Shown here: positions 1 to 28,295 of the stretch, in pieces | Numbering within the stretch: position 1 is the first letter of the stretch | How the letters are laid out: each line of letters starts with the position of its first letter | From: a plasmid | Direction: 5' to 3' (one strand) | Sequence record: NZ_CP027233.1 | DNA length: 28,295 bases | Program-made: the position numbers and the translations under genes | The notes under the pieces: model-generated | Seen by the model: only the letters and a program-made list of their open reading frames with translations | Databases searched by the model: none | What the model was told of the DNA's origin: nothing

Positions 1-2693
1 TAATCAATTGGCATAAGAAAACAATTAAATTTTTGTTGATAGAATTTATAAGTTCCCCCTTTCTTTTTCTTGAAACTACAACTTACTCCACTCCTTTTGT
101 AATTTGAGAATCTCAGCCTACTATCTTGGTTTCCTCCAACACAAACTAAATTTTCCCCGTTTATTCCATATAAGAAAGTTATATGCCCACTTCCGTCTGG
201 TTTTTGAGTCTCTTTTTCATAGTTAGTCATAACAACAATACACCCAAGTATAGGTTCATCAACGATTTTAAAAAGTTTTTCTGTTTTTGATTTTGCTAAC
301 TCAATAAAGGCTTGGGATCTTAGTCTCTGCCCTCCCTTTTTTCCTACTTTCTGATTTGCAGCATTAAGACACCAACTAACAAAAGCCGCACACCATTGCC
401 CATTAACATTATCATCGGGGTTATGATTACTACCAGAAAATAACAAACACTCTTTGGCAAAAGGAAAAAGTTCTTTACTACTTTCGTGAGCTCCTTTTGC
501 CATTTTTAATTTTTCAATAGCAATTCTCAGCCAAGGAGGATAAACATCAAACACCTTCATCATCTGAGTTACCCACGCGAAGGGTTCAAAATACCAAAAA
601 ACGCCTTCTTTAAAGAAAGTTTTGTCTTGCCCGCTTAGTTTATCTTTCAGTTTTTCCCAAAAGGTATAAGTAGCATCGAATACCTTTTCAGTAAATTCTA
701 ATTTCTTCTCTATTTCAGCATCTTTGGCTTTTGGATAGTGATACTCAAAATAAGCTTTGGCATCTTCCTTTATACGCTCACAACTATACGACCATTCGCT
801 TTGGTGCTTGCAAACCATTTTGGAGAGGATATGATAGGTACCAGGGCTGTTGTACTTTGCTCTGAGTTCTTTGTTGTCGATGATTCTATCTCCATTTTCA
901 TCAAGTAAACTTATCATTTTATTGATAAACTCTGAAGTGCCACTGTAATGGTTTACTCCTTTTATAGGATATATTCTATGGTCTTCGGCATCTTGGCAAC
1001 TGAAACCAAATTTATTCCAACAATGGGCACTAAAAAGCTCTTCGTCTTTGGGGTGTTCTATCCAACCGTAATTGTATATGATTTTGTTTCCTTCGTAGTA
1101 ATAGCTTTTTACATAAAGCCATTTTTTACCTTCATAAGTTATTTCTTTACACTTACTTTTGTCTATCAAAACCATTCGGGATAGCGTATTTTTAAACTCA
1201 CAAATTCTTTTTTGTTGTTCGTTATCGCGATATTTTGTTTCCTCATCTGGATTGGTGAGGTAAAGACAAGGGGTATCGGCTTTTAGTTTATAGTCTACTT
1301 TATTCTTTTCCCATTTGCGAGGTACTTTTTCTATATAGTTATTCCTTACCCAAAACGCTTTTCGCTTATGAGTAACAATATCTCTATAATGAAAATTTTT
1401 ACCGTTGCGTTTGCCTATTGGTTTTTCATAACTATTTTCAGGAAGTTCTTTTATAATTTGTGTAGGTATTACTTGTGTGTAATTCTCGGTTTTCTTTTTA
1501 GCGTCTATCGTTATAATTACGCCTTTGTAATCTTCAGACGAAACTTTTAGATAGGGTTTTAAAACGGTTCCTTTTTTAAGTTCAAAATATCGCTTTTGTC
1601 CTGCTCCTTCTATATATTTATCATTTTTAATGTTGTGGATAAACTGATACATCCCCATTCTGTCTATGATATCTCCTTTTTCGTTTACTTTGTTGTAATT
1701 GCCAGGGGTAAAGACTTCGAGATGGGTGGCGTAGTAATCGGGCTGGTTGTAAATGCCTTGTTTGCCTACATAGCCTATAAGTTCTCCAGCCTTTACAGCT
1801 ATATCACAAGTTTGTACGCCTTCTATAAGTTTTTGGTTTTGTAGGAAAGGAGGAAAATTGTTGTTTTTATTAGGTTTAGATGGCGTTTTTGCGCTATCTG
1901 TTGTTACTTCTTGTAGTTTTCCGTCCTTTAATTCCCCCTTTTTGAGAAAACAAACTTCTCCTTCATAGAGAATCTCTATCCATTCCGTATCAGAGTCATT
2001 TTTTACAGTAACAGTACTTCCTACAGCAATTGCTTTTCGAGCGATTTTGCTTTCGCCTTCAGTGTAATATAACAAAATTCCTTTTTGGTCTTTATAGGCA
2101 ATACTTGTCCATCGTACTTTGCCTTTATTTACAGTTGGTTTCTTTTCATTGCCATAAGTCTTAGGTATACGTATCTCTTTTTGTGGAACATTATTGATAT
2201 CTTTCCCGTTTACCACATAATAATCTTCTTTTTCTTCTTTTATGTTTAAAGCGGTGTGAGTCGGGAAAAACAATGTTTTATCGACACTCCATATACCACT
2301 TAGTTTATATCCACCATTAGCTGCTGGTACAGCCTTGTATTTTTTCTCTTGTGGAGGTGCTGGTTTTTCTTCTCCAAAAAATAGATGGTAATACAAACTA
2401 TAAAGCGTGAGTGTGTGGCTACCACTTTTATAATCGTGGCGTATCAGTACAAAATTATTATAAAGGGAGATGGGTTTACCGTCTTTTGTACCTACTTCTA
2501 TTTCGTTCTTGCTGTAGCGAAAGGCTATAATCTTCCCGTCGGCTATTGCTTTTACTTTTTTGCCTTTACCTTCTATATGTACCCCGCCGTGCCAACAGTG
2601 GTAGAAGCCAATAGGGAAAAATCCGTTTTGTAGGCTGGTACCAAAAGGGTAGTCTTTACTTATTATATTATCTGTAGGATAAGATACGTTCAT
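1..2693 (-). CDS. T6SS cargo effector, 3'-partial (runs off the window edge), about 897 codons in the window. N-terminal M23/LytM-like peptidase domain, apparently split by a ~200-aa insertion. C-terminal TIGR02594/CHAP-like peptidoglycan hydrolase domain.
   Basis: ATG at 2693-2691 lies 12 nt downstream of the PAAR gene on the same strand. Hand translation from it (MNVSYPTDNIISKDYPFG...) stays open to position 1. The six-frame track lists no minus-strand ORF fragments in 1-2700, only short plus-strand ones, which fits a single long ORF truncated by the window. Motifs read from the translation: WHGGVHIEGKG...AIADGKIIAF, NNFVLIRHDYKSGSHTLTLYSLYYHL and, about 200 aa later, VKAGELIGYVGKQGIYNQPDYYATHLEVF. 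These match the M23 peptidase family. The C-terminal NVNGQWCAAFVSWCLNAANQ...CVGGNQDS matches the WCAAFV...GGNQ signature of the TIGR02594 phage-type cell-wall hydrolase family. The hand translation may contain individual residue errors. Confidence 0.6.
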   Translation of the reverse strand, partial: MNVSYPTDNIISKDYPFGTSLQNGFFPIGFYHCWHGGVHIEGKGKKVKAIADGKIIAFRYSKNEIEVGTKDGKPISLYNNFVLIRHDYKSGSHTLTLYSLYYHLFFGEEKPAPPQEKKYKAVPAANGGYKLSGIWSVDKTLFFPTHTALNIKEEKEDYYVVNGKDINNVPQKEIRIPKTYGNEKKPTVNKGKVRWTSIAYKDQKGILLYYTEGESKIARKAIAVGSTVTVKNDSDTEWIEILYEGEVCFLKKGELKDGKLQEVTTDSAKTPSKPNKNNNFPPFLQNQKLIEGVQTCDIAVKAGELIGYVGKQGIYNQPDYYATHLEVFTPGNYNKVNEKGDIIDRMGMYQFIHNIKNDKYIEGAGQKRYFELKKGTVLKPYLKVSSEDYKGVIITIDAKKKTENYTQVIPTQIIKELPENSYEKPIGKRNGKNFHYRDIVTHKRKAFWVRNNYIEKVPRKWEKNKVDYKLKADTPCLYLTNPDEETKYRDNEQQKRICEFKNTLSRMVLIDKSKCKEITYEGKKWLYVKSYYYEGNKIIYNYGWIEHPKDEELFSAHCWNKFGFSCQDAEDHRIYPIKGVNHYSGTSEFINKMISLLDENGDRIIDNKELRAKYNSPGTYHILSKMVCKHQSEWSYSCERIKEDAKAYFEYHYPKAKDAEIEKKLEFTEKVFDATYTFWEKLKDKLSGQDKTFFKEGVFWYFEPFAWVTQMMKVFDVYPPWLRIAIEKLKMAKGAHESSKELFPFAKECLLFSGSNHNPDDNVNGQWCAAFVSWCLNAANQKVGKKGGQRLRSQAFIELAKSKTEKLFKIVDEPILGCIVVMTNYEKETQKPDGSGHITFLYGINGENLVCVGGNQDSRLRFSNYKRSGVSCSFKKKKGGTYKFYQQKFNCFLMPID

Positions 2694-2705
2694 AAGGAAT
2701 AGTTT

Positions 2706-3080
2706 TTAGATGTTTAGGTCAAAAAAAGGTATATCAAGTGTTGTTTCAAGTTCTTCTATAGCTTCTATTTCGGTAACTTCTCCAGCGTTAGTGCCTATCA
2801 AAACGGTAGGCACTCCACTTATAATCACACCGCCGTGAGCGGTAGCATCTCCCACTGTTGCTGCGGGTTTACCGCTTATCAGTACGCTACTTACGCCCTG
2901 CACAATGGTATCAGCTCCTCCTGCCTCGCAGGTGCATATACAACTGGCGGTAGTAGCAGGTTGTCCTCCTATGAGCACACTGTTTTCCCCTTGAACCACT
3001 GGACCTCCTACGTGAGGCGTATTGCCGGTAGTCATAGGGCAGGTGTGCATACTATTAATGGTTGCTGCTTGTCCTGGCAT
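2706..3080 (-). CDS. PAAR-domain protein (T6SS spike tip)
   Basis: N-terminus MPGQAATINSMHTCPMTTGNTPHVGGPVV fits the PAAR-motif start (P-A-A-R-like, then H-x-C-P, then PHVGGPI). There are three internal Gly/Pro/Ala/Thr-rich repeats (GGQPATTAS, SGKPAATVGD, SGVPTVLIG). It is a GC-rich island in AT-rich DNA, immediately downstream of vgrG and upstream of the effector. Confidence 0.85.
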   Translation of the reverse strand: MPGQAATINSMHTCPMTTGNTPHVGGPVVQGENSVLIGGQPATTASCICTCEAGGADTIVQGVSSVLISGKPAATVGDATAHGGVIISGVPTVLIGTNAGEVTEIEAIEELETTLDIPFFDLNI

Positions 3081-3093
3081 TTTGTATGTGTTT

Positions 3094-4956
3094 TTAGTTA
3101 ATTTTCACTAATCGAGCCATTAGTTCGGCTAAGCTTTTACCTTTTAGTTTGATTCTCTCTCCACTGAGTTCGGTGAGAGAAGTACCTTGTAAAAGAGCGG
3201 TGTCAGCTCTAAGAGTTGCTTTGTTTTGAGCTTCTATTGCCAAAGTATTATCACTTCTGAGGGTCATTCTTTCTTCTGACTGCAAAGATATATTTTTTTG
3301 ACTTACCAAATCAATATCCACTTCAGAATTTATCACTGTTTCTGATTTAGAATGGGTGATAATATCTTTTTCAGCTGTGATTTCTACGTTTTCTTGGGCA
3401 TTTATCTTTACATTTTTAGCTGAAATATTAATAGTTTCGGGAGATTGTAAGGAAAGAGATTTGTCTTTGGAATCAAAAGTGATGATATTCCCTTTCTTAT
3501 CCTTGATAGTTATTTTTTCGGCGCTTTCAGTATCGTCAAACACAATAGTGCTCCCGCTTTTGGTAGTAATACTCCTTATGTTGTTGCTTACTTCTTTGGT
3601 GTTCTTGCCGTGGTACATACTGCCACTCACATAAGGTCGGTGGGGGTTACCTTGCTCAAAGCTTACCATCACCTGGTCGCCTACCTCAGGAATAAACTGA
3701 AACCCACGGTTGCTACTATTGTCAGTAAGCACGCCCGCATCGGGGGTTTGTACTCGCAACCAAGAGGTCTGCTCGCCTAAGTGTCTTTGCCAGAAGAAAC
3801 GCACTTGCACGCGCCCTTGTTTCTTAGGGTCGTCGTTGGCTACTACTTCTGCTATTTCAGGATAAGCAATCGTTTCCGGCTCGTACATAGCGTATTCCAT
3901 TCCCAATGGCACGGCTACAAAGCGGTTGTAATAATCATCGCGGTCTACACAGTGTTCTACCGAAATCACTCGGTATTCCCCCATATTTTCTTTTTCAAAT
4001 CCCGAAGGGAATTTTACGTAAATGAGGCTACCCAAGCGCACCAAGCTATTGTGGGTTTTACCCTCAACGCAGTGCATTTTGCCCAATGCCTGTTGGTATT
4101 TGCTCTGTTGCAGTCTTGCCGTATCACCTGCCAATGGGGTGGGTACTTCGGCAGAAAGCATTCCTCTTTGTGAATATAAATTTTCAGGGTCTTGAAAAAC
4201 GTTTTGGGTATAGGTATTGCGCGGTCTTACTTCCTCTTCGGTGTCCGAATGAATATATTCATCGTCCTCCGCATTGTAGTTGTAAAGGGTGTATTTAAAA
4301 GGAAGTGTTTTGGAAGAAACTTTAAATTCGGTAATATCTTCGTCTATGGTTAGGTCTTCGGATTGTTCACCAGCTACCTCTCCAAACACGAGCTTACTAC
4401 CGTCAAAATACAGAAGTTCGTTGTAAATAGCCGAAAGCCTATTCAAAAAATCCCAACGGCTTTCTTTATACTGCATCGCATACGGAATAATCCCTTTAAA
4501 CTTAGGATTACAAGTCAAGTCGAAATATTTATTTTTAAAAACGGTCTCTACAATATTTTTAAGGTCATTCTCTACAAACGAGTTCATCGAAGGAGCATCG
4601 TCCAATACCACGGGGCTTCCCTTACCTATAAAGCGTATTTTGTTTTCACTTCCTCCTTGGGTAGGGGTATCCGAGTCTATCACTACCTCAGTAATAAAGC
4701 CCGAAAATTGGAAAGTGTTTTCTCCTCTGGGGAAGGAAAGGCGTATAATCACATTTTTGCCCACTTGTTTTAAGAGTTCTTGTGACTGCTCTTGCCAAAG
4801 GGTTTTGCGGGTAGCAATGGTCTCTACCAGCTCAAAATCACAGCAAGAGTTTAATGATTGTTTTAACGATAGACTATTGAAGCGTGAAGTCTTGTCTTTG
4901 CCATCTATATGCACCGAATGGAAGATAGGACGGAGTTTAGAGAATGTACTTTGCAT
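3094..4956 (-). CDS. vgrG: VgrG / TssI spike protein (gp27-gp5-like)
   Basis: 620 aa. Contains LRVQTPDAGVLTDNSSNRGFQFIPEVGDQVMVSFEQGNPHRPYVSGSMYHG, which matches the conserved VgrG/gp5 OB-fold segment (RV-AG...G...P..G.EV.V.F..GDP.RP...G..Y). Followed 13 nt later by the PAAR gene. Confidence 0.8.
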   Translation of the reverse strand: MQSTFSKLRPIFHSVHIDGKDKTSRFNSLSLKQSLNSCCDFELVETIATRKTLWQEQSQELLKQVGKNVIIRLSFPRGENTFQFSGFITEVVIDSDTPTQGGSENKIRFIGKGSPVVLDDAPSMNSFVENDLKNIVETVFKNKYFDLTCNPKFKGIIPYAMQYKESRWDFLNRLSAIYNELLYFDGSKLVFGEVAGEQSEDLTIDEDITEFKVSSKTLPFKYTLYNYNAEDDEYIHSDTEEEVRPRNTYTQNVFQDPENLYSQRGMLSAEVPTPLAGDTARLQQSKYQQALGKMHCVEGKTHNSLVRLGSLIYVKFPSGFEKENMGEYRVISVEHCVDRDDYYNRFVAVPLGMEYAMYEPETIAYPEIAEVVANDDPKKQGRVQVRFFWQRHLGEQTSWLRVQTPDAGVLTDNSSNRGFQFIPEVGDQVMVSFEQGNPHRPYVSGSMYHGKNTKEVSNNIRSITTKSGSTIVFDDTESAEKITIKDKKGNIITFDSKDKSLSLQSPETINISAKNVKINAQENVEITAEKDIITHSKSETVINSEVDIDLVSQKNISLQSEERMTLRSDNTLAIEAQNKATLRADTALLQGTSLTELSGERIKLKGKSLAELMARLVKIN

Positions 4957-5030: not shown

Positions 5031-5597
5031 TTACTTTTTTAAATTTTCTATTCGGTAGAAACTTGTTTTGCTTATTTTTGCTTGTTTGCAGGCTTTATCA
5101 ATAGAGATATTTTTATTTTTATAGAGATGTAATGCAAATTGGTATTTTTCTAAAATCTCTTGGCTTACTCCTGCAGGGCGACCTAAGTGTTTATTTCTTT
5201 TGCGAGCACCTTCCAATCCTGCTTTGGTGCGTTCGGCAATGAGGTTTCTTTCAAATTCGGCAACAGCCCCAAATATTTGGATAATAAAGCGACCATTGGC
5301 AGAAGAGGTATCAAAAGCAGGCTCAGTAAGACTTTTAAACAATACTTTTTTTTGGTTGAATATTTCAATCAATTCAATCATATTTTTTAGAGAGCGGAAA
5401 ATTCTATCGGTTTTGTATACGATAACAATATCGCCTTCGCGAAGGAAAGAAAGCATTTCGTTGAGTCCTTTTCGGTCTTCACGAACGCCACTGGCAATAT
5501 CAGTATATATTTTTTCACATCCGTTTTCTTTTAGAAGAGTTACTTGTGTGGAAATATTCTGGTCAGAGGTAGAGACACGAGCATATCCAAAAATCAT
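5031..5597 (-). CDS. Small serine site-specific recombinase (resolvase/invertase family, Hin/Gin/Tn3-resolvase-like)
   Basis: N-terminus MIFGYARVSTSDQN is the catalytic-serine motif of serine recombinases. 188 aa, with a C-terminal HTH-like segment (ISIDKACKQAKISKTSFYR). Confidence 0.9.
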   Translation of the reverse strand: MIFGYARVSTSDQNISTQVTLLKENGCEKIYTDIASGVREDRKGLNEMLSFLREGDIVIVYKTDRIFRSLKNMIELIEIFNQKKVLFKSLTEPAFDTSSANGRFIIQIFGAVAEFERNLIAERTKAGLEGARKRNKHLGRPAGVSQEILEKYQFALHLYKNKNISIDKACKQAKISKTSFYRIENLKK

Positions 5598-5728
5598 AGT
5601 TCTAAAAAATATTAATTTATGTTACTATTAAAAAAGACGATATTTGGAACTGTTTTAACAAGACATATCAGTGTTACAGTAAAGGGTTTAAAAAACGAAG
5701 GTTAAATGGAACTGTTACAGGCTGATAA
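5598..5728. promoter_or_regulatory. Candidate res-like recombination/regulatory site upstream of the serine recombinase gene
   Basis: 130-bp non-coding gap immediately upstream of the recombinase start. Contains the direct repeat TGGAACTGTT at about 5647 and about 5707, and the near-palindromic CTGTTACAG at about 5675 and about 5712. Size and position resemble Tn3-family res sites. Confidence 0.2.
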
Positions 5729-6280
5729 TTATAATTTGTTTATTCTGTATTTTTTGTATAAGTAAGAAGATTTTTCTTCTATAAAGTTAATAATATCAAT
5801 AAAGAAATAGCTAGTAGAATATTCACTCATACGTTGCATATTTTCTTTTTTAGCTAGTGAATAGCAAACATCGTCATACAATTGTAGAGTATCATCGTCA
5901 TAACCTCCAAAGATAATGAAAGAAAGTTCTTTTGAAGAAATAGTTCTTTCTCCCCACCTACGACCAGCACGCTTTATAAATTCTTTGAAGGAGGTATCTT
6001 TTGCAGGATAAAAACTATTAGTTTGATTAAATTCATTAATCATTTCAAGAAGGATCATACGTAAGAAATCTTTTCTTTGCATATAATGAATATTTCCTGT
6101 TTTAATGATGAACATATTCAACAGATATTTAAACTTTTCGCTTTTCTCTTTGCTAAGACTGATACGTATATTTTGTTTTTTATTTTTTATCGAAAAATCT
6201 TCATTCAACTTTGATGCAATAACATCAAAGTTTTCGGGGATGAACTCCCCTACTCTTTCTATTTTTTTAGTTTTTGCCAT
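5729..6280 (-). CDS. Hypothetical protein co-transcribed with parA (possible non-canonical ParB/centromere-binding partner)
   Basis: 183-aa ORF whose start overlaps the parA stop by 14 bp, suggesting translational coupling. No recognisable motif. The function is inferred only from position. Confidence 0.45.
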   Translation of the reverse strand: MAKTKKIERVGEFIPENFDVIASKLNEDFSIKNKKQNIRISLSKEKSEKFKYLLNMFIIKTGNIHYMQRKDFLRMILLEMINEFNQTNSFYPAKDTSFKEFIKRAGRRWGERTISSKELSFIIFGGYDDDTLQLYDDVCYSLAKKENMQRMSEYSTSYFFIDIINFIEEKSSYLYKKYRINKL

Positions 6281-7022
6281 TCTCTATTTTTGTTAAAATT
6301 TCGGTTACTAAATGTTTAAAGTCTTCAGCAGCTCTACATTTGTCATTATACTCAAAGATAGTCATACCTTCGAGGGCAGCTTCTACTACTTTCACGTCTT
6401 TACGAATATAGGTTGTGAATACATAATTGGGGTTTTCTTCTTTCAGTTTATTGAAACAATCGTTGAATACATTCGTATTATCGATAGCATTAGAAAAATA
6501 TATACCGAGTAGTTTGAGGCGATTATTGAACTTTTTCAAGTCTAACATTTTTTTTGAAAAAGGAAATACGTTTTTAATAGAATATAAATCGGCTTGTATG
6601 GGAATGATTACATAATCTACAGAACAGATAGCTAATTCAGCAGAAGTTACGAAGTGAGGATTAATACCCGTGGGGGGACAATCTATTAATATAAAGTCAT
6701 ATAAGTCATCAAAGTGGGAGTTTTCTAATGCTTTTTGTAGTTCTTGGCGATGGTATTTATCAGCATACAATTCGGGTGAACCAGCTAATAGATGGAAGTC
6801 TTTAGCTATACTTGAAAGACGTACATTTTTTCCCTTGTTGTCTAAAAAGTCTTTGATGGTATAGGTTGAGTTTTTAATTCCTACACCGCCTGTTAGGTCG
6901 CATTGATTATCGGCATCTATGAGGAGGACTTTGTATCCTCGATTATGGAGTTCAGCACCTATATGAATAGTATTGGTAGTTTTGCCAACCCCTCCTTTGT
7001 GATTGATATTTACGATTCTCAT
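6267..7022 (-). CDS. parA: ParA/Soj-family partition ATPase (small, type Ib-like)
   Basis: MRIVNINHKGGVGKTTNTIHIGAELHNRGYKVLLIDADNQCDLT carries the deviant Walker A KGGVGKT of ParA/MinD. The track ORF begins at a TTG at 7052. I prefer the ATG at 7022 (MRIVNI...), the typical ParA N-terminus. Confidence 0.85.
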   Translation of the reverse strand: MRIVNINHKGGVGKTTNTIHIGAELHNRGYKVLLIDADNQCDLTGGVGIKNSTYTIKDFLDNKGKNVRLSSIAKDFHLLAGSPELYADKYHRQELQKALENSHFDDLYDFILIDCPPTGINPHFVTSAELAICSVDYVIIPIQADLYSIKNVFPFSKKMLDLKKFNNRLKLLGIYFSNAIDNTNVFNDCFNKLKEENPNYVFTTYIRKDVKVVEAALEGMTIFEYNDKCRAAEDFKHLVTEILTKIENGKN

Positions 7023-7296: not shown

Positions 7297-7752
7297 ATGA
7301 CAATAAACGAACCTAAAAATAATTATAAAATTCCGTTAGATTTTTCCTCCTTTTTTGATGAAAAAAAAGGAGGCTTAGGTAAATGTACAGAAGTAGAATC
7401 AATAGACACTCATATAGAGCTTCTTATCACTACTTACCAAGGAGAATGTAGTTTTGATAAACAATATGGTACTACTATTGGAGAATTAGATTTTGAACAA
7501 GTAAAAACCGTAGAAGGTTGGAAAGAAGAAGTTTCTGAAAGTTTAAAAAAATCTATCTCTTTATATGAACATAGGATTACGATATTAGATTTCCAAATGA
7601 ATATAGACGAACTTTTGCAAGAAGATTCTCTATACGGGAATGTAAACATACGAAAACGAGTGAATATTCTAATCAAAACAAAACTAAAAAGCAATGGAAA
7701 TTATTGTGTTTTTCAGTATCAATTATATTTAAGTCCTTTATCAAAAAATTAG
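7297..7752 (+). CDS. tssE: TssE (gp25-like baseplate protein)
   Basis: 151 aa. SIDTHIELLITTYQGECSFDKQYGTTIGELDFEQ matches the GPW/gp25 signature (I..LL.T..GER...P.fG..l..l.F). Directly followed by a TssF-sized gene. Confidence 0.75.
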   Translation: MTINEPKNNYKIPLDFSSFFDEKKGGLGKCTEVESIDTHIELLITTYQGECSFDKQYGTTIGELDFEQVKTVEGWKEEVSESLKKSISLYEHRITILDFQMNIDELLQEDSLYGNVNIRKRVNILIKTKLKSNGNYCVFQYQLYLSPLSKN

Positions 7753-20367: not shown

Positions 20368-20475
20368 ACAACTAATTACATAAAACATAAATAGTATAAT
20401 ATAAATAATATTTTTTGTTTATATTTGATTATTAATAGGTGTTTACAAGTTGTTTATAAAACTTTTTTTCATTCT

Positions 20476-23008: not shown

Positions 23009-23066
23009 ATACATTATAAAACTCCTACTAAAAGAATTATAAATACATTATAAAACTCCTACTATA
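23009..23066. repeat. Iteron copies (2) downstream of rep, in the clpV upstream region
   Basis: ACATTATAAAACTCCTACTA at 23011-23030 and 23045-23064, spaced 34 bp apart. Confidence 0.7.
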
Positions 23067-23083: not shown

Positions 23084-24103
23084 TTATATGTTTTTATTAG
23101 CTTCTGAAACTATTTTTCCTACCTTCTTTTTAAGGGCATTTATTAAATACCCTTTTCTGTTGCTAATAATTTTACCTCTTCTTTCATATTCATTCATTTT
23201 TGCTTTTATACTTGCACACTCATTCAATAAATCAGAAACAGCATTTATATTTTTGAAAGTTTCTATATTTTTTCGTAATTCTATTTCTGTAAAACCAAAA
23301 TTGTGGTTCAAGTAATTTACCTCTTCTTTTGATAGAGAGAATCTTGAAGATATCTTTTGGTTTAAACTACGGCGTTCCAAATCTGAATCTATATATTGAG
23401 GTTGGTATTTAGGAGTAAAAGTTATAGAAACAATCTTTCCCCCTCTTCCTTTTCTATTAAGCTCAAAATCAAACGTATAAGGGCTATATTTATCAAGCTC
23501 TTTTTTAGCAGCACTTATAACATCTCTTATAAAATCTTTTGTATACTTATACTTATCTGTAATATTGAACATTTCCTTAATTTGCTCAACTGTAAAAGTT
23601 ATAGGTTTTTTTTGATTACTAAATATCTCATAGAAACGCATTGCATAAACACTTTCAAAACTCATAGCTGTTTGAAGTTCATATTTTCTATATCCTTTTG
23701 AAAAGTCCATAAATACTGACGCTATGAAAGGAGATAACCTAAAACTAACCATTCCTGCCTTTTTATCTATAACAGGACGCTCAATAAGATTAAATGCTCT
23801 AAAAACATTATTGTCCTCTGTTTTTATTTGCTTTTGGTTAAGTGCTAACAAAGCTTTCTTAGCGATACTATGATTGTTATCTTTTTCGTCTTTTAAAAAA
23901 CTCTTTGTTGGCATTTGTATATCAACATCCCCAAAAAGATTGTTCTGAACGTTATAACGTTCATTTAATTTCTTCCCTTCAGTTAGTTCTTGCATAAGCT
24001 CTATAATACGGTATAAAATACGTTTTTCATATACGTTATAATCATACTTAGCCGTAGTAAGAATATATGATTGTACTAGCTCTTTATTATTATTTTCTTC
24101 CAT
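23084..24103 (-). CDS. rep: Rep_3-family plasmid replication initiator (iteron-binding RepA-like)
   Basis: 339 aa. N-terminal VQSYILTTAKYDYNVYEKRILYRIIELM fits the Rep_3 pattern (sn.l..a.y.Ls..ekrll...is.i). Flanked on both sides by directly repeated about 20-bp iterons. Confidence 0.7.
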   Translation of the reverse strand: MEENNNKELVQSYILTTAKYDYNVYEKRILYRIIELMQELTEGKKLNERYNVQNNLFGDVDIQMPTKSFLKDEKDNNHSIAKKALLALNQKQIKTEDNNVFRAFNLIERPVIDKKAGMVSFRLSPFIASVFMDFSKGYRKYELQTAMSFESVYAMRFYEIFSNQKKPITFTVEQIKEMFNITDKYKYTKDFIRDVISAAKKELDKYSPYTFDFELNRKGRGGKIVSITFTPKYQPQYIDSDLERRSLNQKISSRFSLSKEEVNYLNHNFGFTEIELRKNIETFKNINAVSDLLNECASIKAKMNEYERRGKIISNRKGYLINALKKKVGKIVSEANKNI

Positions 24104-24123: not shown

Positions 24124-24291
24124 CATTATAAAACTCCTATTTTACTAATAGATGGGGCAAAGATATATAAAAAGTAGGAGTTATAAAAATAATTCTCCTA
24201 CTTTTTGAAAAATACATTATAAAACTCCTACTAAAAGAATATGTCTACATTATAAAACTCCTACTATTCATTATAAAACTCCTACTATTCA
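24124..24291. repeat. Iteron array upstream of rep (candidate oriV). At least four direct copies plus one inverted partial copy.
   Basis: Copies of (A)CATTATAAAACTCCTACTA at 24124 (variant), 24214-24233, 24247-24266 and 24269-24287. An inverted partial AGTAGGAGTTATAA at 24173-24186 forms an inverted repeat with CTCCTACT at 24195-24202. Copy spacings are 33 and 22 bp. Confidence 0.7.
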
Positions 24292-24988
24292 TTTTTTATT
24301 ACTCTCTAAATCCTTCCGTAGAAAAGGCTTAAAGGTGTTTTTGTTTTTCGTTGATAAACATCATAATAAGCTATGATATTTTTTAATACAATCAAGAGAG
24401 TTTTTAAGAAAGTAAGACGAATTTTTTCACTTTCATTTGAAAAAAATCATCTCATCAAGAGACAAAAGCAAACTGGCCGGGTGAATTTTAACATTTTCTT
24501 AATATTTATAGAATTAAATCCAACATTTTAGAAATTAATTCCTTTAAAAGTATCCAAAATATTTTTTTAATAGATTTTTTAAATGGTTCTAACCTGAACC
24601 AATTATATTTAAATTTTATTTTCATGATGAAAATTTTTATGCAAAATAATATAGAACGCTTTTTTTTCCAAAAAGATAAATTAGACAGACTTTAAGCTGT
24701 CTATTTATATTATAATAGCAAATATAAGATGCGCTTGCTGATTACAAATAGATAAATTTTGAATAGTACTTTGTTTTTTCTTTCACCCTTTAAGGAGATA
24801 TGGGGAGGTAATTGTTAGGGGAGAATATTGCGGTTTCAATATTATTTATTACTTTTGCCGATAGTATAGCACGTATCAAAATGGGGTATGGGTGCGGTTT
24901 TATTAGTGTTATAGGTCGAGATGTGTTTTTGTTAGCACAAAAACCTTCTCGCCCGCCCTCCCGTTGGTCGGTTGGGGTTTGCCCTCAC

Positions 24989-25018
24989 GGGTTCGGGGGG
25001 AGGTCACCCCCCGAACCC
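24989..25018. promoter_or_regulatory. Candidate oriT. GC-rich 12-bp perfect inverted repeat upstream of the mob genes.
   Basis: GGGTTCGGGGGG-aggtca-CCCCCCGAACCC lies inside an 80-bp GC-rich island in otherwise about 30% GC DNA, 25 bp upstream of the mobC ATG. oriT sites of MobC/relaxase modules typically lie immediately upstream and contain such an inverted repeat next to the nic site. Confidence 0.4.
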
Positions 25019-25043
25019 CCCGCAGGTAAAAAGCGACGCAAAT

Positions 25044-25448
25044 ATGGCAGAAGAAAAAGACATCAAACCAGGTTGGCAGAACGCCACCAAAGAGAAAGGC
25101 ACTAAAGGTGGGCGACCTCCCAAGCAGGTAAAAGCTGAAGAACGTATTACTATCAGAGTTACCAGCTTTGAGAAATTAGCCATTGGCAAGAAAGCCGAAG
25201 CGGTAGGGCTTAGTTCCTCCGAGTACTGCCGTAGGGCAGCTTTAGAAAGACACATCACCCCTGCACTCACAGCAGAGGAGACAGAAGCCTATTTGACTTT
25301 AAAGAAATTCGCTACTGACTTTGCCAGGTTACGAAATGCCTTCAAAGTTGGTGCGCCTACACTGGTCGAGGAAATACGCCAGGTTATTTATAAATTAAAC
25401 GCTGAATTAGATTATATACGCAATGGTAAGCAAAGCAAAGGCAGTTAA
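25044..25448 (+). CDS. MobC-like relaxosome accessory protein (ribbon-helix-helix mobilization protein)
   Basis: MAEEKDIKPGWQNATKEKGTKGGRPPKQVKAEERITIRVTSFEKLAIGKKAEAVGLSSSEYCRRAALE has a GGRP lysine-rich tail then an RHH-like RITIRVT...SEY.RR core. This is typical of Bacteroides-type MobA/MobC accessory proteins. The track ORF from 24972 starts at a TTG inside the GC-rich inverted repeat and is likely over-extended. Confidence 0.65.
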   Translation: MAEEKDIKPGWQNATKEKGTKGGRPPKQVKAEERITIRVTSFEKLAIGKKAEAVGLSSSEYCRRAALERHITPALTAEETEAYLTLKKFATDFARLRNAFKVGAPTLVEEIRQVIYKLNAELDYIRNGKQSKGS

Positions 25449-26238
25449 AGGCAGTGCGCAGGCTATTAATTATATTCTTGATGATAAAGGGCAAGCCCAA
25501 GAATTAGGGCGTAACCTGGTCAGTGGAGAGAATGGGGAGGAAATCCTTGCAGAGATGAGGGAAATACAAGAGATGAATGCCAGGTGCGAAAACAATACAT
25601 ACAGCATAGTTTTGAGCCCATCAAATGAACGTGAATTTACCAATAGGGAACTTTACGAAATAGGGTTGAAGCACTTGCAGAACTTGAATTTTGACCTAAA
25701 CAAAACCCAATTCCTTATGACAGTTCACAAGAGTACAGACCAGCCTCATATTCACATTATAGCCAATAGAATAGACATAGAAGGCAAAGCCCATAACGAT
25801 AACTTCATTGGGAAGAGAGCGCAAGAGAGTGCCGAGAGGATAGCCAAGAGTTTGGGATTAAAGACAGCGAGGGAAATCCAAGCTGAGAGAACTCCAGATA
25901 TAAAGACACAGATACGGCAGGCGTACGAGCAGAGTGCCAAGAGAGGTTATACTTTTGAGGAATTTAGTAAGGCGATGAATAGTAAAGACATAGAAGTAAA
26001 TCCTACCATTAACAGCAGGGGAGAAATGCAGGGAATGCGATTTGTACACAAGGCGAGCGGTACCGACTTAAAAGCCTCCGAGCTCGGCAAGGCTTTTGGA
26101 GCGCGAAATTTGATAGATAGAGGGGTGAACCTTACTAAAATGCCTTTGTCTGCAAATCTGACTGAAATTGCCAGAAAAGCAGGTAAAATTGTAGTACAAA
26201 CAATCGACAGAGGTCGTGGAATGAGTATGGGAATTTAA
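25423..26238 (+). CDS. Mobilization relaxase (MobA/VirD2 relaxase domain family)
   Basis: N-terminus MVSKAKAVKGSAQAINYILDD is the relaxase N-terminus with the putative catalytic Tyr region. HKSTDQPHIHIIANRIDIEG is the HxDxxxPHxHxxxNRI histidine-triad motif of Pfam Relaxase. Overlaps the mobC end by 26 nt. Confidence 0.8.
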   Translation: MVSKAKAVKGSAQAINYILDDKGQAQELGRNLVSGENGEEILAEMREIQEMNARCENNTYSIVLSPSNEREFTNRELYEIGLKHLQNLNFDLNKTQFLMTVHKSTDQPHIHIIANRIDIEGKAHNDNFIGKRAQESAERIAKSLGLKTAREIQAERTPDIKTQIRQAYEQSAKRGYTFEEFSKAMNSKDIEVNPTINSRGEMQGMRFVHKASGTDLKASELGKAFGARNLIDRGVNLTKMPLSANLTEIARKAGKIVVQTIDRGRGMSMGI

Positions 26239-26267: not shown

Positions 26268-26747
26268 ATGGCACAAAGACTTTCCAATGAAATCATAGCG
26301 CAGGTTCTTACTGATGTAGTAACCAAGTTAGATAAGAGTATTAACAGCTTTAGGGGTGAGATATCCCAGATAAAACAAGACCTTACAGCGCACAGAGAGG
26401 CAACGCAAAAGGTATTAAGCAGGGCAATATCCGTAGATGTAAAGCCTATCGAGGAGGAGAGGGCAAAGCTGTTGCAGGAAGTGCAGAAAGAAAAAGAGGC
26501 TATAAAGGGAACGTTTAAAAATATATCCTTTGTGAAGTACGTGATTTATATAGCTATTGGAACAATCCTGGTCAATTCTTTATTATTTGGTTTCTTTATT
26601 TATTCTGCATCAAATGCAGACGCGCAGGAGGTTAGTAGTTTTAAAGAATATAGGAAGAAATTTCCTACTATTGAAAATCACTACCGAGAGTGGAAAGCCA
26701 ACCCAAAAGAAGTAGAAGAACGTTTTAAAAAGAATACACAGATGTAG
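26268..26747 (+). CDS. Hypothetical protein with one C-terminal-half TM segment, downstream of the relaxase (third gene of the mob operon)
   Basis: 159 aa. Coiled-coil-like N-terminal half, then the TM segment YVIYIAIGTILVNSLLFGFFIY. Starts 30 nt after the relaxase stop. Confidence 0.45.
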   Translation: MAQRLSNEIIAQVLTDVVTKLDKSINSFRGEISQIKQDLTAHREATQKVLSRAISVDVKPIEEERAKLLQEVQKEKEAIKGTFKNISFVKYVIYIAIGTILVNSLLFGFFIYSASNADAQEVSSFKEYRKKFPTIENHYREWKANPKEVEERFKKNTQM

Positions 26748-26928: not shown

Positions 26929-26932
26929 AAGA

Positions 26933-27472
26933 CTATGCTGTAGGAATTTGAACAGCTACTATTTTATATTTCCCATTTTGTTTCTTCAGAACAAAATCAA
27001 AAGTCGTTTTCCACACATCCATATATATACTAAAACAATTTTTATTTTCTTCAAAAAAAGTGCAATTTCCTTTTGAAATACTGATGGCAGATTTTAGTCC
27101 TTCTTTTAAGAGCCCTTCATACAGCATAATGTTATCTTTTACTTCATTAAATGTATAAAACTTGTCTTCAAAAATTTTTAAATTCTCATCAAGACCTCTA
27201 ACTATTAATGGAAAATTTATGAGTTCTTCTAACTTTTCATCATTGTTAGATAATGAGATTTTTTTCATTCGTTGAAGAAATTCTTCTATTGTTTCATTTT
27301 TAGTAGCCTTCAATTCAACACTTTTTATTACCTGAGATGTAATAGTATCTAATTTGAGGCTATCTTGCGTTTCAACTTTATTTTCTTGAGAGTCATAAAC
27401 ATTTACTTTTGAAGTATTGTTTTGACAACTTATAAATATTAAAAATAGTATAGAACTAAAAAGCTTTTTCAT
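26933..27472 (-). CDS. Lipoprotein (179 aa). Candidate T6SS immunity protein.
   Basis: MKKLFSSILFLIFISCQNN has a signal peptide and lipobox FISC. Periplasmic lipoproteins are the usual immunity partners of cell-wall-degrading effectors. Lies directly upstream (same strand) of the effector-gene relic. Confidence 0.5.
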   Translation of the reverse strand: MKKLFSSILFLIFISCQNNTSKVNVYDSQENKVETQDSLKLDTITSQVIKSVELKATKNETIEEFLQRMKKISLSNNDEKLEELINFPLIVRGLDENLKIFEDKFYTFNEVKDNIMLYEGLLKEGLKSAISISKGNCTFFEENKNCFSIYMDVWKTTFDFVLKKQNGKYKIVAVQIPTA

Positions 27473-27483
27473 TTTGATATAAT

Positions 27484-28206
27484 TTAATTTTTTAGGGATT
27501 TTCTTATTTTTTCTATAGTTTCAGTATTAAACAAAGAATGACCATTTTCTTCCAATGATAAGATTATATTATATACTTTTTTCTTTAGTTTTGTGGGTAG
27601 GTAAAAAAATGTTTTGTCAATTTGGGTATGTCTTCCATCATCTATAGTTGAATTTTGATGACGAATGGCTATTTTTTTTCCTAAATAATAAACAAGTATT
27701 TTTACTCTTCCTTCTTCAAAATCTTCCCCATATAAAGATTTTGTTCCATAAACTATGATTGGGTCTATATACCCATCATTATCTATATCTGTTAGACTGA
27801 GATATCTTGTCCAAAAACTAATAGATTTTTCCGTTTCATCGATAAAATCTGTAATTGTCCAATTTGTTTTTATTTGTTTGTCTTTCAAAAAAGAAATATT
27901 AAAGGCTTTTATATTTTTTTTCAAACTATGCTCATCTTCTATATTTCCCTTAATTACATTCTCAGTAAAAATGATATATTGCTTACTTTCCTTATCAGAA
28001 AAGGAATAAATTCTAAATATGGGATATTGAATTCCTATTTCATTTAGAACATTATCAGTAAAAATTTTATTTATTTCTGATTTTGTTAAAATAGTATCCC
28101 TTATGCTATCAGTATATATTTCATTATTGAAATAACTCACTTTAGCTATTAAATTTGTACAGCAAAATAAGCCAAAAAAGAAAAGTATTTTAATGTGTAG
28201 ATTCAT
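27484..28206 (-). CDS. Secreted/periplasmic protein (240 aa). Candidate second immunity protein.
   Basis: MNLHIKILFFFGLFCCTNLIAKV is a hydrophobic signal sequence with a possible lipobox Cys. Co-oriented with the 179-aa lipoprotein, 11 nt apart. Confidence 0.45.
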   Translation of the reverse strand: MNLHIKILFFFGLFCCTNLIAKVSYFNNEIYTDSIRDTILTKSEINKIFTDNVLNEIGIQYPIFRIYSFSDKESKQYIIFTENVIKGNIEDEHSLKKNIKAFNISFLKDKQIKTNWTITDFIDETEKSISFWTRYLSLTDIDNDGYIDPIIVYGTKSLYGEDFEEGRVKILVYYLGKKIAIRHQNSTIDDGRHTQIDKTFFYLPTKLKKKVYNIILSLEENGHSLFNTETIEKIRKSLKN

Positions 28207-28295
28207 TTTTATTTGTTTTTAAGTTTAAACCATATTTTTTATTAGCCTCATTAGCCGTTATTATAGGAATATTTTTATTATATAGACTTTCAGGA

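What the first reader, a model, noticed from the sequence alone, without database searches (positions are those of the whole stretch)
1..28295. A T6SSiii locus embedded in a plasmid-type backbone (Rep_3 plus iterons, ParA, serine resolvase, oriT-MobC-relaxase)
T6SS genes and classical plasmid maintenance and transfer genes alternate along the whole window. Replication: rep with iterons at 22995-24295. Partition: parA plus a partner ORF at 5729-7022. Multimer resolution: a serine recombinase at 5031-5597. Mobilization: a candidate oriT, mobC and a relaxase at 24989-26238. The iterons sit in the promoter region of clpV. The parA module sits between vgrG and tssE. The T6SS genes are therefore not a passenger island in one spot. 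They are interleaved with the backbone. This points to a mobilizable plasmid, or a chromosomally integrated derivative, whose main cargo is a complete interbacterial-antagonism machine plus effector and immunity genes. In gut Bacteroidales two T6SS architectures are known to ride on ICEs. A Rep_3 iteron plasmid carrying T6SSiii would be a different vehicle.
Basis: partly seen in the sequence, partly recalled or inferred. Interest (0 to 1): 0.65.

Follow-up and report, generated by a model that had tools for sequence, protein, structure and literature searches.

The report
Small Capnocytophaga plasmid carrying complete T6SS

Summary
All named genes are present and intact:
- Backbone: a Rep_3 initiator with a 19-nt iteron (7 copies against 0.02 expected), ParA plus a partner ORF, a serine resolvase, and a NikA-like protein with a relaxase.
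- T6SSiii: TssB, C, D, E, F, G, H, I, K, N, O, P and R, a TssQ candidate, PAAR, an effector and two immunity candidates.

The window is a closed circle. Eight independent metagenome contigs bridge its two ends without a gap at 99.8% identity. The effector ORF reads through the junction. The window proteins are GenBank AVM56318-AVM56338 of Capnocytophaga sp. oral taxon 864, on an NCBI contig of exactly 28,295 bp.

The exact Rep protein is indexed in 177 blocks of public assemblies, never on a contig over 50 kb. A sister lineage reaches about 50 kb. The replicon is related to pCC7, whose origin drives Capnocytophaga shuttle vectors. The rep-mob module is syntenic with small Empedobacter plasmids.

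A 2026 survey lists only two T6SSiii plasmids in Bacteroidota. One of them, NZ_CP027233.1, is very probably this record. So the vehicle is real and unusual (small, mobilizable, no toxin-antitoxin module found), but already catalogued. The family's prevalence, mosaicism and swappable effector-immunity cassettes appear undescribed.

The parts
1..2693 (-). T6SS effector, main part. The gene encodes 932 aa, starts at 2693 and wraps across the window ends.
   Evidence: The ORF is open across the junction. It has weak Peptidase_M23 similarity (aa 35-91) and a TIGR02594/CHAP-like C-terminal domain (aa 764-870), both below curated cut-offs. The part encoding the N-terminal ~700 aa (window 550-2693) is 93% identical in relatives. 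The 3' part (window 1-550, C-terminal region) is variable.
28190..28295 (-). 3' end of the effector gene, after wrapping around the circle. It overlaps the start of the 240-aa gene by 17 nt.
   Evidence: Contigs L011-L018 span this junction at 99.8% identity.
2706..3080 (-). PAAR spike-tip protein
   Evidence: PF05488, E 2.9e-20
3094..4956 (-). VgrG (TssI)
   Evidence: Phage_base_V E 1.2e-19 and Phage_GPD E 1.5e-8. GenBank AVM56318.1, 'Vgr family protein'.
5031..5597 (-). Serine recombinase (resolvase). Probable multimer resolution.
   Evidence: Resolvase E 1.5e-41 and HTH_7. dN/dS 0.075.
5598..5728 (.). Candidate res region, with TGT..ACA dyads and a repeated TGGAACTGTT.
   Evidence: Read from the sequence only. 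Not tested.
5729..6280 (-). ParA partner (183 aa). Candidate centromere-binding protein.
   Evidence: Overlaps parA by 14 nt. No Pfam, NCBIfam or PDB sequence match. Only 7 clusters of relatives, all close (70-99% identical), no more distant homologues. The AF2 model (pLDDT 62) shows two beta-alpha-alpha units. No significant fold match.
6267..7022 (-). ParA partition ATPase (251 aa from the ATG at 7022)
   Evidence: AAA_31 E 1.7e-27 and CbiA E 5e-17. NCBI relatives are named 'ParA family protein', 251 aa.
7297..7752 (+). TssE (gp25-like baseplate wedge)
   Evidence: PF04965, E 1.8e-7
7758..9581 (+). TssF (607 aa from the ATG)
   Evidence: Weak T6SS_TssF hit, E 1.6e-3. Conserved position between tssE and tssN in all related loci.
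9597..10469 (+). TssN (membrane complex)
   Evidence: PF17555, E 2.3e-92
10524..11909 (-). TssC (sheath, large subunit)
   Evidence: PF17541, E 3e-217
11923..12375 (-). TssB candidate (sheath, small subunit)
   Evidence: Position between hcp and tssC in every related locus. Only a weak VipA hit, E 0.022.
12455..12847 (-). Hcp (TssD)
   Evidence: PF17642, E 1.8e-46
13492..15903 (-). TssR lipoprotein (membrane complex)
   Evidence: Four TssR Pfam domains, E 1e-91 to 6e-26
15910..16803 (-). TssP (N-terminal TM helix plus PKD domains)
   Evidence: PKD, E 1.7e-16. The architecture matches TssP as described in PMC10781749.
16816..17319 (-). TssO
   Evidence: PF17561, E 1.1e-41
17325..17828 (-). TssQ candidate (167 aa, single N-terminal TM helix)
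   Evidence: No family hit. Inferred from its position next to tssO and its topology. The C. cynodegmi counterpart has a weak TssO hit.
17845..18783 (-). TssG
   Evidence: PF06996, E 4.5e-7. TIGR03347, E 7e-7.
18800..19879 (-). TssK
   Evidence: TIGR03353, E 3.3e-15. PF05936, E 7.5e-5.
19886..20475 (.). Conserved non-coding spacer between tssK and clpV. It is a cargo insertion site in the sister lineage.
   Evidence: 98.8-99.3% identical in L001, L003 and L008. In L100-L104 the same site holds a VasX_N effector and 3-4 immunity paralogues.
20476..22962 (-). ClpV (TssH). A mosaic allele.
   Evidence: AAA_2 E 3.9e-57, AAA_lid_9, ClpB_D2-small, Clp_N. It is 87-91% identical to its own lineage but 92-96% identical to the sister lineage.
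23012..23064 (+). Two exact iterons in the 121-nt rep-clpV spacer
   Evidence: Also present in the sister lineage.
23084..24103 (-). Rep_3 replication initiator
   Evidence: Rep3_N and Rep3_C. 55% identical to pCC7 Rep. GenBank AVM56336.1 / WP_009417448.1.
24124..24287 (+). Iteron array upstream of rep. Three exact direct copies spaced 33 and 21 nt, one imperfect copy, and an inverted copy at 24173-24188.
   Evidence: Conserved in the sister lineage.
24288..24940 (.). AT-rich region, probably the site of origin unwinding
   Evidence: GC 0.28. 98.3% conserved. The function is inferred.
24989..25018 (+). Candidate oriT hairpin (12-bp perfect inverted repeat with a 6-nt loop)
   Evidence: Relatives keep only a 7-bp GC core, so the assignment is weak.
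25044..25448 (+). NikA-like (RHH) relaxosome accessory protein, 134 aa
   Evidence: PF21983, E 1.3e-15. 46% identical to its counterpart in Empedobacter p1681-tetX.
25423..26238 (+). Relaxase (MobA/VirD2-like nuclease domain), 271 aa
   Evidence: PF03432, E 2e-26. 51% identical to Empedobacter plasmid relaxases and ~30% to Bacteroides MbpB. dN/dS 0.067.
26268..26747 (+). Third mob-module gene (159 aa, coiled coil plus TM helix)
   Evidence: 28% identical to the gene that follows the relaxase in p1681-tetX. Function unknown.
26933..27472 (-). Immunity candidate 2 (179-aa lipoprotein-like)
   Evidence: N-terminal signal sequence with Cys, read from the sequence. It travels with the effector C-terminal cassette in L011-L018.
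27484..28206 (-). Immunity candidate 1 (240 aa, signal peptide)
   Evidence: Overlaps the effector stop codon. Always follows this toxin C-terminus in L011-L018.

Best explanation
The window is the complete sequence of a 28,295-bp circular plasmid of human oral Capnocytophaga. GenBank labels its proteins Capnocytophaga sp. oral taxon 864.

Backbone, about 5.8 kb:
- It is an iteron-controlled Rep_3 replicon of the pCC7 type. Rep binds the 19-nt iterons upstream of its own gene to start theta replication in the adjacent AT-rich region. The inverted copy and the two distal iterons probably serve autorepression and copy-number control.
- A small ParA with an RHH-like partner segregates the copies.
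- A serine resolvase resolves multimers.
- A three-gene mob module (NikA-like protein, relaxase, small membrane protein) with an upstream oriT lets a co-resident conjugative element mobilize the plasmid. The plasmid has no mating-pore genes of its own.

Cargo, about 22 kb (78%):
- One complete T6SSiii: TssB/C sheath, Hcp tube, VgrG-PAAR spike, TssE/F/G/K baseplate, TssN/O/P/Q/R membrane complex and ClpV.
- One 932-aa effector, probably a peptidoglycan hydrolase.
- Two exported immunity candidates.

What is shown and what is inferred:
- Shown here: gene content, intactness, purifying selection, circularity, plasmid-only context in hundreds of assemblies, and cassette-like variation of the effector C-terminus and immunity genes.
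- Inferred: replication and partition mechanics, mobilization, firing of the T6SS and the effector's target.
For: Circularity:
- The effector ORF continues across the window ends and stops at the start of the next gene.
- Eight contigs from other samples align without a gap at 99.8% over window 27165-28295 plus 1-599.
- The NCBI contig that carries AVM56338.1 and AVM56328.1 is 28,295 bp, the length of the window.

Extrachromosomal context:
- The exact Rep is indexed in 177 blocks, with longest contigs of 20-50 kb and none larger. The ten places shown come from contigs of 23.4-30.1 kb (seven of them 28.4-30.1 kb) that break at different points of the same gene circle.
- The sister Rep is in 132 blocks, with a maximum of 50.6 kb.

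Replicon:
- Rep3_N and Rep3_C. Iterons at 7 against 0.02 expected.
- Rep is 55% identical to pCC7 Rep, and pCC7 has the same 21/34-nt repeat spacing.
- 'ori pCC7' is the replicon of C. canimorsus shuttle vectors (PMC3128124).
- Rep, accessory protein, relaxase and the TM protein are syntenic with Empedobacter p1681-tetX at 48, 46, 51 and 28% identity.

T6SSiii:
- Family hits. Component list from PMC10781749.
- dN/dS 0.02-0.13 for the 18 T6SS and backbone genes that gave a ratio.

Host range: the identical Rep protein is recorded in oral taxon 864 and oral taxon 335. Close variants occur in oral taxon 324 and C. sputigena.
Against: - No experiment or read-depth data were available, so copy number and autonomous replication are inferred.
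- The oriT hairpin is perfect only in this plasmid. Relatives keep a 7-bp core with no compensatory change.
- The ParA partner has no recognisable family, and its fold match is not significant.
- TssB and TssQ rest on position and topology.
- Effector domain hits are below curated cut-offs.
- A block 90% identical to window 7223-12966 lies next to genes that are chromosomal in C. sputigena in other samples. Related T6SS DNA is therefore not confined to plasmids.
- The identity with accession NZ_CP027233.1 is inferred, not read from the record.
Confidence: 0.9

Rival explanations
1. The locus is a chromosomally integrated derivative (an island or ICE remnant) that only looks like a plasmid.
For: In other samples, a T6SS block 90% identical to window 7223-12966 is flanked by lipocalin, wall-associated-protein and PHO4 genes. 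Close relatives of those flanking genes lie on complete 2.9-3.1 Mb C. sputigena chromosomes.
Against: - The window closes on itself exactly.
- The NCBI contig is 28,295 bp.
- No contig above ~51 kb carries either Rep variant, in 309 index blocks.
- There is no integrase, att-like repeat or chromosomal gene in the window.
Confidence: 0.03
2. The element is a phage, phage-plasmid or extracellular contractile injection system rather than a T6SS plasmid. One family member is deposited as 'Bacteriophage sp.'.
For: A third-party annotation labels a 29,751-bp relative 'MAG TPA: Bacteriophage sp.' (DAR47792.1 and others). The sheath, tube, spike and gp25 proteins are phage-tail-like.
Against: - No capsid, portal, terminase, tape-measure or lysis genes are present.
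- The T6SSiii-specific membrane complex proteins TssN, TssO and TssR (E 1e-41 to 1e-92) and ClpV are present.
- No relative of the Rep protein was found in IMG/VR.
Confidence: 0.02
3. The plasmid is real, but its T6SS is a decaying or silent passenger that no longer fires.
For: - No expression or secretion data exist.
- The plasmid is far smaller than typical T6SS plasmids, 78% of which are megaplasmids.
- TssB, TssF and TssQ match family models poorly.
Against: - All 14 expected components are full length.
- dN/dS is 0.02-0.13 between lineages at dS up to 1.6.
- Effector and immunity cassettes are actively exchanged, which implies ongoing selection for antagonism.
Confidence: 0.06
4. The arrangement is an assembly chimera that joins a small plasmid to a chromosomal T6SS.
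For: Repeated effector and immunity modules do break and could misjoin assemblies.
Against: The same gene order recurs in at least 10 independent assemblies from different studies and assemblers (SPAdes, MEGAHIT-style and scaffolds), at 96-99% identity. It also recurs in isolate genomes of several taxa.
Confidence: 0.01

Closest known systems
pCC7 of Capnocytophaga canimorsus (NC_011336.1, 4.6 kb), the replicon of Capnocytophaga shuttle vectors
   Same: - Rep_3 initiator, 55% identical over the full length.
- Direct repeats upstream of rep with the same 21/34-nt spacing.
- Same genus.
- Its origin is used experimentally.
   Different: - pCC7 is a cryptic 4.6-kb plasmid with a RelE/ParE toxin and an IS5 element.
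- It has no par, res, mob or T6SS genes.
- The iteron sequence differs.
Empedobacter falsenii p1681-tetX (NZ_CP040909.1, 19.6 kb) and related Weeksellaceae plasmids
   Same: The backbone block is the same and in the same divergent arrangement: rep, then the origin region, then RHH accessory protein, relaxase and a small TM protein. Identities are 48, 46, 51 and 28%.
   Different: - The cargo is antibiotic and arsenic resistance plus a YafQ toxin-antitoxin module, not a secretion system.
- There is no ParA or resolvase.
GA1 and GA2 T6SSiii of gut Bacteroidales, carried on integrative conjugative elements (Coyne et al. 2016, cited in PMC10781749)
   Same: A complete T6SSiii with variable effector-immunity regions rides a mobile element that is shared between species of one human body site.
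   Different: - Those are large ICEs that integrate in the chromosome and encode their own conjugation machinery.
- This element is a 28-kb autonomous Rep_3 plasmid with only a relaxase module.
- It has no integrase or tra genes.
Plasmid-borne T6SS surveyed in PMC13098142 (405 systems on 375 plasmids), including the only other T6SSiii plasmid, Hymenobacter volaticus NZ_CP095063.1
   Same: It is a complete T6SS on a plasmid with a type I ParA partition system. It is very probably the survey's entry NZ_CP027233.1.
   Different: - 78% of T6SS plasmids are megaplasmids, only 6.4% are mobilizable, and 363 of 375 carry TA modules.
- The Hymenobacter plasmid is 316 kb and non-mobilizable.
- This plasmid is 28 kb and mobilizable, and no TA module was recognised.
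Chromosomal T6SSiii of Capnocytophaga cynodegmi (CP022378.1, 2.64 Mb)
   Same: - It is the closest TssC found on a Mb-scale, clearly chromosomal contig (72%; a 76% lineage lies on contigs of at most 38 kb of unknown replicon status).
- The gene modules are the same, including a VgrG-PAAR-M23 effector (913 aa) with immunity genes.
   Different: - The modules are ordered and oriented differently.
- There are no rep, par, res or mob genes in the +/-10 kb shown around tssC.
- It lies in a chromosome.

Membership tests
T6SSiii (Bacteroidota-type type VI secretion system) | Core tail and baseplate components TssB, C, D, E, F, G, H, I and K are present | tested here: met
   - Above Pfam cut-offs: TssC, Hcp, TssE, TssG (29.9 vs 24.6 bits), VgrG and ClpV.
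- Significant but below curated cut-offs: TssK (also below its Pfam cut-off).
- Weak hits plus conserved position: TssF (E 1.6e-3) and TssB (E 0.022).
T6SSiii (Bacteroidota-type type VI secretion system) | The TssN-Q-O-P-R membrane complex replaces TssJ/L/M | tested here: met
   - TssN E 2e-92, TssO E 1e-41, TssR four domains, and TssP as a TM helix plus PKD domains.
- TssQ is assigned only by position and topology.
- No ORF of 80 aa or more hit TssJ, TssL or TssM.
T6SSiii (Bacteroidota-type type VI secretion system) | Contact-dependent secretion of Hcp and effectors | not testable with these tools
   This needs Hcp secretion and competition assays.
Rep_3 iteron plasmids (pCC7-like replicon) | Initiator with Rep3 WH1 and WH2 domains | tested here: met
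   PF01051 E 4.9e-17 and PF21205 E 2.4e-12. 55% identity to pCC7 Rep.
Rep_3 iteron plasmids (pCC7-like replicon) | Tandem iterons next to rep and an AT-rich region | tested here: met
   The 19-mer gives 7 hits against 0.02 expected. Spacings are 33/21 nt upstream and 34 nt downstream. The flanking region has GC 0.28. The arrangement is conserved in the sister lineage.
Rep_3 iteron plasmids (pCC7-like replicon) | Circular, extrachromosomal molecule | tested here: met
   End-bridging contigs, a wrapping ORF, an NCBI contig length equal to the window, and no large contigs. Copy number was not tested.
Rep_3 iteron plasmids (pCC7-like replicon) | Rep-dependent autonomous replication | not testable with these tools
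   Only the homologous pCC7 origin has been shown to work, in shuttle vectors.
Mobilizable plasmid (relaxase plus oriT, no mating-pair formation genes) | An intact relaxase with its accessory protein | tested here: met
   PF03432 E 2e-26 over the whole nuclease domain. NikA-like protein E 1e-15. A His-rich motif PHIHII is visible in the sequence. dN/dS 0.067.
Mobilizable plasmid (relaxase plus oriT, no mating-pair formation genes) | No T4SS or coupling protein on the element | tested here: met
   None of the ORFs of 80 aa or more scanned against Pfam (every ORF not nested within a longer gene) hits T4SS or T4CP families.
Mobilizable plasmid (relaxase plus oriT, no mating-pair formation genes) | A functional oriT or nic site | tested here: inconclusive
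   A 12-bp perfect inverted repeat lies upstream of the mob genes. It is degraded to a 7-bp core in relatives, without compensatory changes. No nic consensus was identified.
Type Ib ParA/ParB partition system | A Walker-type ParA with an adjacent small DNA-binding partner and a centromere | tested here: inconclusive
   - ParA is met.
- The partner ORF overlaps parA, and its model shows two beta-alpha-alpha units. There is no significant fold or sequence match.
- No clear centromere repeats were found.
Bacteroidales GA1/GA2 T6SS ICEs | Integrase and conjugative transfer (tra) genes, with chromosomal integration | tested here: not met
   The window has no integrase or tra genes and is a closed circle.

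The most novel reading that the evidence does not exclude
The plasmid may couple its weapon to its own maintenance in two ways.
1. The two iterons conserved in the 121-nt rep-clpV spacer may let Rep occupancy, and so copy number or replication state, gate read-through or initiation of clpV and perhaps the downstream T6SS genes.
2. With no toxin-antitoxin module recognised, the effector-immunity pair may act as a 'social' addiction system. Cells that lose the plasmid lose immunity and are killed by plasmid-bearing siblings.

Together with the swappable effector C-terminus and immunity cassettes, and with mobilization, this would make the family a self-stabilising, portable weapon circulating among oral Capnocytophaga species.
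Probability: 0.2. Interest if true: 0.6.

Novelty: already known. Interest (0 to 1): 0.35.

Why it matters
T6SSiii is known mostly from chromosomes and, in gut Bacteroidales, from large ICEs. Plasmid-borne T6SSs are almost all proteobacterial megaplasmids.

This plasmid shows that a whole T6SSiii fits on a 28-kb mobilizable replicon with under 6 kb of backbone. Relatives of it are common in public assemblies, many of them from the human mouth, and occur in several Capnocytophaga species.

That gives oral-microbiome ecology a concrete vehicle for spreading interbacterial weapons and their immunity genes. It also gives geneticists a naturally compact T6SSiii, on a replicon whose relative already works in shuttle vectors.

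The record itself is already public and very probably catalogued. The value lies in characterising it, not in discovering it.

Tried and rejected
- Megablast of 25 kb against PLSDB found no close plasmid, only a 72% TssC hit in Bernardetia. NZ_CP027233.1 is not in that copy.
- A genome-contig scan with Rep found nothing.
- A genome-contig scan with TssC returned no Capnocytophaga among the best 80 hits, and Bacteroidales hits of up to 68% ranked first. I briefly read this as a cross-class origin. I rejected that when the protein search found a C. cynodegmi chromosomal TssC at 72% and another lineage at 76%. The pattern-based scan simply missed them.
- Rfam found no RNA family.
- An IMG/VR scan with Rep found nothing.
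- The sigma-70 promoter scan was not above chance (16 against 16.8) and does not suit Bacteroidota promoters.
- PDB sequence searches for TssB, the ParA partner and the relaxase gave nothing useful.
- The Foldseek search with the ParA-partner model was not significant.
- The tssK-clpV spacer is not a remnant of the VasX cassette seen in the sister lineage.
A flank gene of L110 led only to chromosomal orphan immunity-like genes between PULs.
- The survey's supplements held as text do not list the accession or the genus.

Full report
**What is in the window.**

T6SS genes:
- PAAR, 2706-3080 (-).
- VgrG, 3094-4956 (-).
- TssE, 7297-7752 (+); TssF, 7758-9581 (+); TssN, 9597-10469 (+).
- TssC, 10524-11909 (-); a 150-aa TssB candidate, 11923-12375 (-); Hcp, 12455-12847 (-).
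- TssR, 13492-15903 (-); a PKD protein with an N-terminal TM helix, which is TssP, 15910-16803 (-); TssO, 16816-17319 (-).
- A 167-aa single-TM protein in the TssQ position, 17325-17828 (-).
- TssG, 17845-18783 (-); TssK, 18800-19879 (-); ClpV, 20476-22962 (-).

The five-protein TssN-Q-O-P-R membrane complex and its topologies are those described for Bacteroides fragilis in PMC10781749. No ORF resembles TssJ, TssL or TssM.

Backbone genes:
- Serine resolvase, 5031-5597 (-).
- A 183-aa ORF, 5729-6280 (-), that overlaps ParA, 6267-7022 (-).
- Rep_3 initiator, 23084-24103 (-).
- A NikA-like RHH protein, 25044-25448 (+). It is not a MobC-family protein.
- A PF03432 relaxase, 25423-26238 (+).
- A 159-aa membrane protein, 26268-26747 (+).

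**Iterons.** The 19-mer CATTATAAAACTCCTACTA occurs 7 times with up to 3 mismatches, against 0.02 expected.
- Three exact direct copies and one imperfect copy lie upstream of rep, with an inverted copy among them (24124-24287).
- Two exact copies lie in the 121-nt spacer between the rep stop codon and the clpV start codon (23012-23064).
- Both sets are kept in a sister lineage whose rep differs at dS 0.39. The distal pair is therefore a conserved feature, not an accident.

**The window is a closed circle.** The first 2.7 kb looked empty in the ORF list only because a long minus-strand ORF runs off the left end.
- Joining the right end to the left end keeps that ORF open. It becomes a 932-aa protein whose stop codon overlaps the start of the 240-aa gene at 27484-28206 by 17 nt.
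- Eight short contigs from other samples, one of them labelled a human oral metagenome, align without a gap at 99.8% identity across window 27165-28295 plus 1-599.
- An exact-sequence look-up shows that the window's proteins are GenBank AVM56318.1 (VgrG), AVM56319.1, AVM56324.1, AVM56327.1, AVM56328.1, AVM56336.1 (Rep) and AVM56338.1 (relaxase). All are from Capnocytophaga sp. oral taxon 864.
- The NCBI contig that carries them is 28,295 bp, exactly the window length.

**It is extrachromosomal across many samples.**
- The exact Rep protein is indexed in 177 blocks of public assemblies. The longest contigs fall in the 20-50 kb class and none is larger.
- The ten places shown come from contigs of 23.4-30.1 kb, seven of them 28.4-30.1 kb. 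They break at different points of the same gene circle: VgrG, the effector, the immunity genes and the clpV-tssK gap. This is what linearised copies of one circle look like.
- A sister lineage with a 338-aa Rep is in 132 blocks, with a maximum of 50.6 kb.
- The same Rep protein is recorded in oral taxon 864 and oral taxon 335 str. F0486. Close variants occur in oral taxon 324 and C. sputigena. This indicates spread between species.

**Relationship of the backbone.**
- Rep DNA matches plasmids of Capnocytophaga, Empedobacter, Riemerella and Bacteroides.
- Rep is 55% identical to the Rep of C. canimorsus pCC7, which has direct repeats with the same 21/34-nt spacing upstream of rep.
- 'ori pCC7' is the replicon of E. 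coli-C. canimorsus shuttle vectors (PMC3128124).
- The block of rep, origin, RHH accessory protein, relaxase and small TM protein is syntenic with the 19.6-kb Empedobacter falsenii plasmid p1681-tetX. Identities are 48, 46, 51 and 28%.
- The relaxase is about 30% identical to Bacteroides MbpB.
- The mob module has 43% GC against 34% overall. It is 88-91% identical within a lineage that is otherwise 97-99.8% identical. It is absent from the sister lineage. It is therefore an accessory, exchangeable module.
- The candidate oriT hairpin at 24989-25018 is perfect only here. Relatives keep a 7-bp GC core with no compensatory change. That assignment is weak.
- The ParA partner has only close relatives (7 clusters, 70-99% identical). 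An AlphaFold model (pLDDT 62) shows two beta-alpha-alpha units, compatible with an RHH DNA binder, but no fold match is significant.

**Origin and state of the T6SS.**
- The closest TssC on a Mb-scale, clearly chromosomal contig is in the C. cynodegmi chromosome (72%). A further lineage is at 76%, on contigs of at most 38 kb whose replicon status is unknown. Porphyromonas spp. follow at about 69%.
- The C. cynodegmi locus has the same modules, including a 913-aa M23 effector after VgrG-PAAR. They are in a different order, and no plasmid genes lie in the +/-10 kb shown.
- An earlier pattern-based scan that showed only Bacteroidales hits was misleading.
- Between plasmid lineages, the 18 T6SS and backbone genes that gave a ratio have dN/dS of 0.02-0.13. 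Nothing looks decayed.

**Effector and immunity.**
- The effector has weak M23 and TIGR02594/CHAP-like similarity.
- It is followed by two exported proteins. This fits a periplasm-acting cell-wall hydrolase with immunity proteins, which is an inference.
- Its C-terminal region and the immunity genes (window about 26916-28295 plus 1-550) form the one region that differs among otherwise near-identical plasmids.
- In other plasmids the same toxin-end plus immunity cassette sits downstream as an orphan module, next to extra copies of internal effector segments. This is the usual signature of polymorphic-toxin cassette swapping.
- The sister lineage also carries a VasX_N effector with 3-4 tandem immunity paralogues. 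They sit at the site that is a conserved 590-bp spacer in this plasmid.

**Comparison with what is known.**
- A 2026 survey of 43,213 RefSeq plasmids found 405 complete plasmid-borne T6SSs. Only two were T6SSiii, both in Bacteroidota: NZ_CP027233.1 and NZ_CP095063.1 (PMC13098142).
- The second is a 316-kb non-mobilizable Hymenobacter plasmid.
- The first is absent from the PLSDB copy. It is very probably this window. This is an inference from the AVM563xx protein accessions, the organism and the contig length; the record title was not seen.
- In that survey 78% of T6SS plasmids are megaplasmids, 6.4% are mobilizable and 363 of 375 carry TA modules. This 28-kb, mobilizable plasmid with no recognised TA module is an outlier in form.
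- Literature searches found no paper that describes the Capnocytophaga plasmid family itself.

**Verdict.**
- T6SS-related DNA makes up 77.5% of the circle and the backbone 20.5%.
- The thing is real and tidy, and it is an unusual vehicle compared with the gut Bacteroidales ICEs. It is also a public, annotated record that has already been counted as a T6SSiii plasmid.
- What seems undescribed is the family: its prevalence in public assemblies, many of them human oral metagenomes, its mosaic backbone, the optional mob module and the exchangeable effector-immunity cargo.
- Whether Rep binding at the clpV-proximal iterons links plasmid state to T6SS expression is an open question. So is whether effector-immunity pairs substitute for a TA module.

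Noticed in passing
window 20476-22962 (clpV); window 5729-7022 (parA and its partner): The plasmid is a mosaic. clpV is only 87-91% identical to the window's own lineage (otherwise 97-99.8%) but 92-96% identical to the sister lineage. ParA and its partner are 100% and 99.5% identical at protein level to sister-lineage contig L109, whose neighbouring T6SS genes are only 75-98% identical. This points to frequent recombination between co-circulating plasmid lineages.
   Followed up: partly
window 19886-20475; L100 13640-19860: The 590-bp non-coding spacer between tssK and clpV is 98.8-99.3% conserved within the lineage. In the sister lineage the same site holds a 6.2-kb insert: a VasX_N pore-forming effector and 3-4 tandem 248-aa immunity paralogues. 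The spacer is not a remnant of that insert. Its function (promoter or cargo landing site) is unknown.
   Followed up: partly
L107, L108, L110 (block matching window 7223-12966): There is a third arrangement. Only tssE-F-N and tssC-B-hcp are shared with the window, at 90%. This block is flanked by VasX/PAAR effector-immunity arrays and by lipocalin, wall-associated-protein and PHO4 genes. Close relatives of those genes lie on complete 2.9-3.1 Mb C. sputigena chromosomes. The Hcp variant is in 815 index blocks, on contigs up to 91.8 kb. It may be a chromosomal copy that exchanges with the plasmids. Its completeness and replicon are unresolved.
   Followed up: partly
L115-L117, around 8937-11929: Small immunity-like genes (159, 191, 180 and 175 aa) related to a gene that lies next to the L110 T6SS block sit between two SusC/SusD polysaccharide-utilisation loci. 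The contigs are chromosomal, 56-219 kb, with no T6SS nearby. They may be orphan immunity islands in Capnocytophaga.
   Followed up: no
Relatives of window proteins: DAR47789.1, DAR47792.1, DAR47794.1, DAR47817.1, DAR47820.1 (29,751-bp contig): A member of this plasmid family is deposited in GenBank as 'MAG TPA: Bacteriophage sp.'. This appears to be a misclassification, probably prompted by the phage-tail-like T6SS proteins. No capsid or terminase genes occur in the family.
   Followed up: partly
window 556-853 and 644-1524; L002 7238-7535; L005; L006; L011 2239-3119: Internal segments of the effector gene recur at 82-88% identity downstream of the immunity genes in related plasmids. They sit at the head of orphan toxin-end plus immunity modules. 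They are likely homology handles for swapping the effector C-terminus.
   Followed up: partly
window 25044-25448 (NikA-like gene) against L001: All differences between the two alleles are non-synonymous (dN 0.036, dS 0; about 11 substitutions). Every other gene tested shows strong purifying selection. The sample is small and the cause is unexplained.
   Followed up: no
window 6712-6730 (-), inside parA: One iteron-like 19-mer with 3 mismatches (CATTAGAAAACTCCCACTT) lies inside the parA coding region. It could be chance or a weak Rep site.
   Followed up: no
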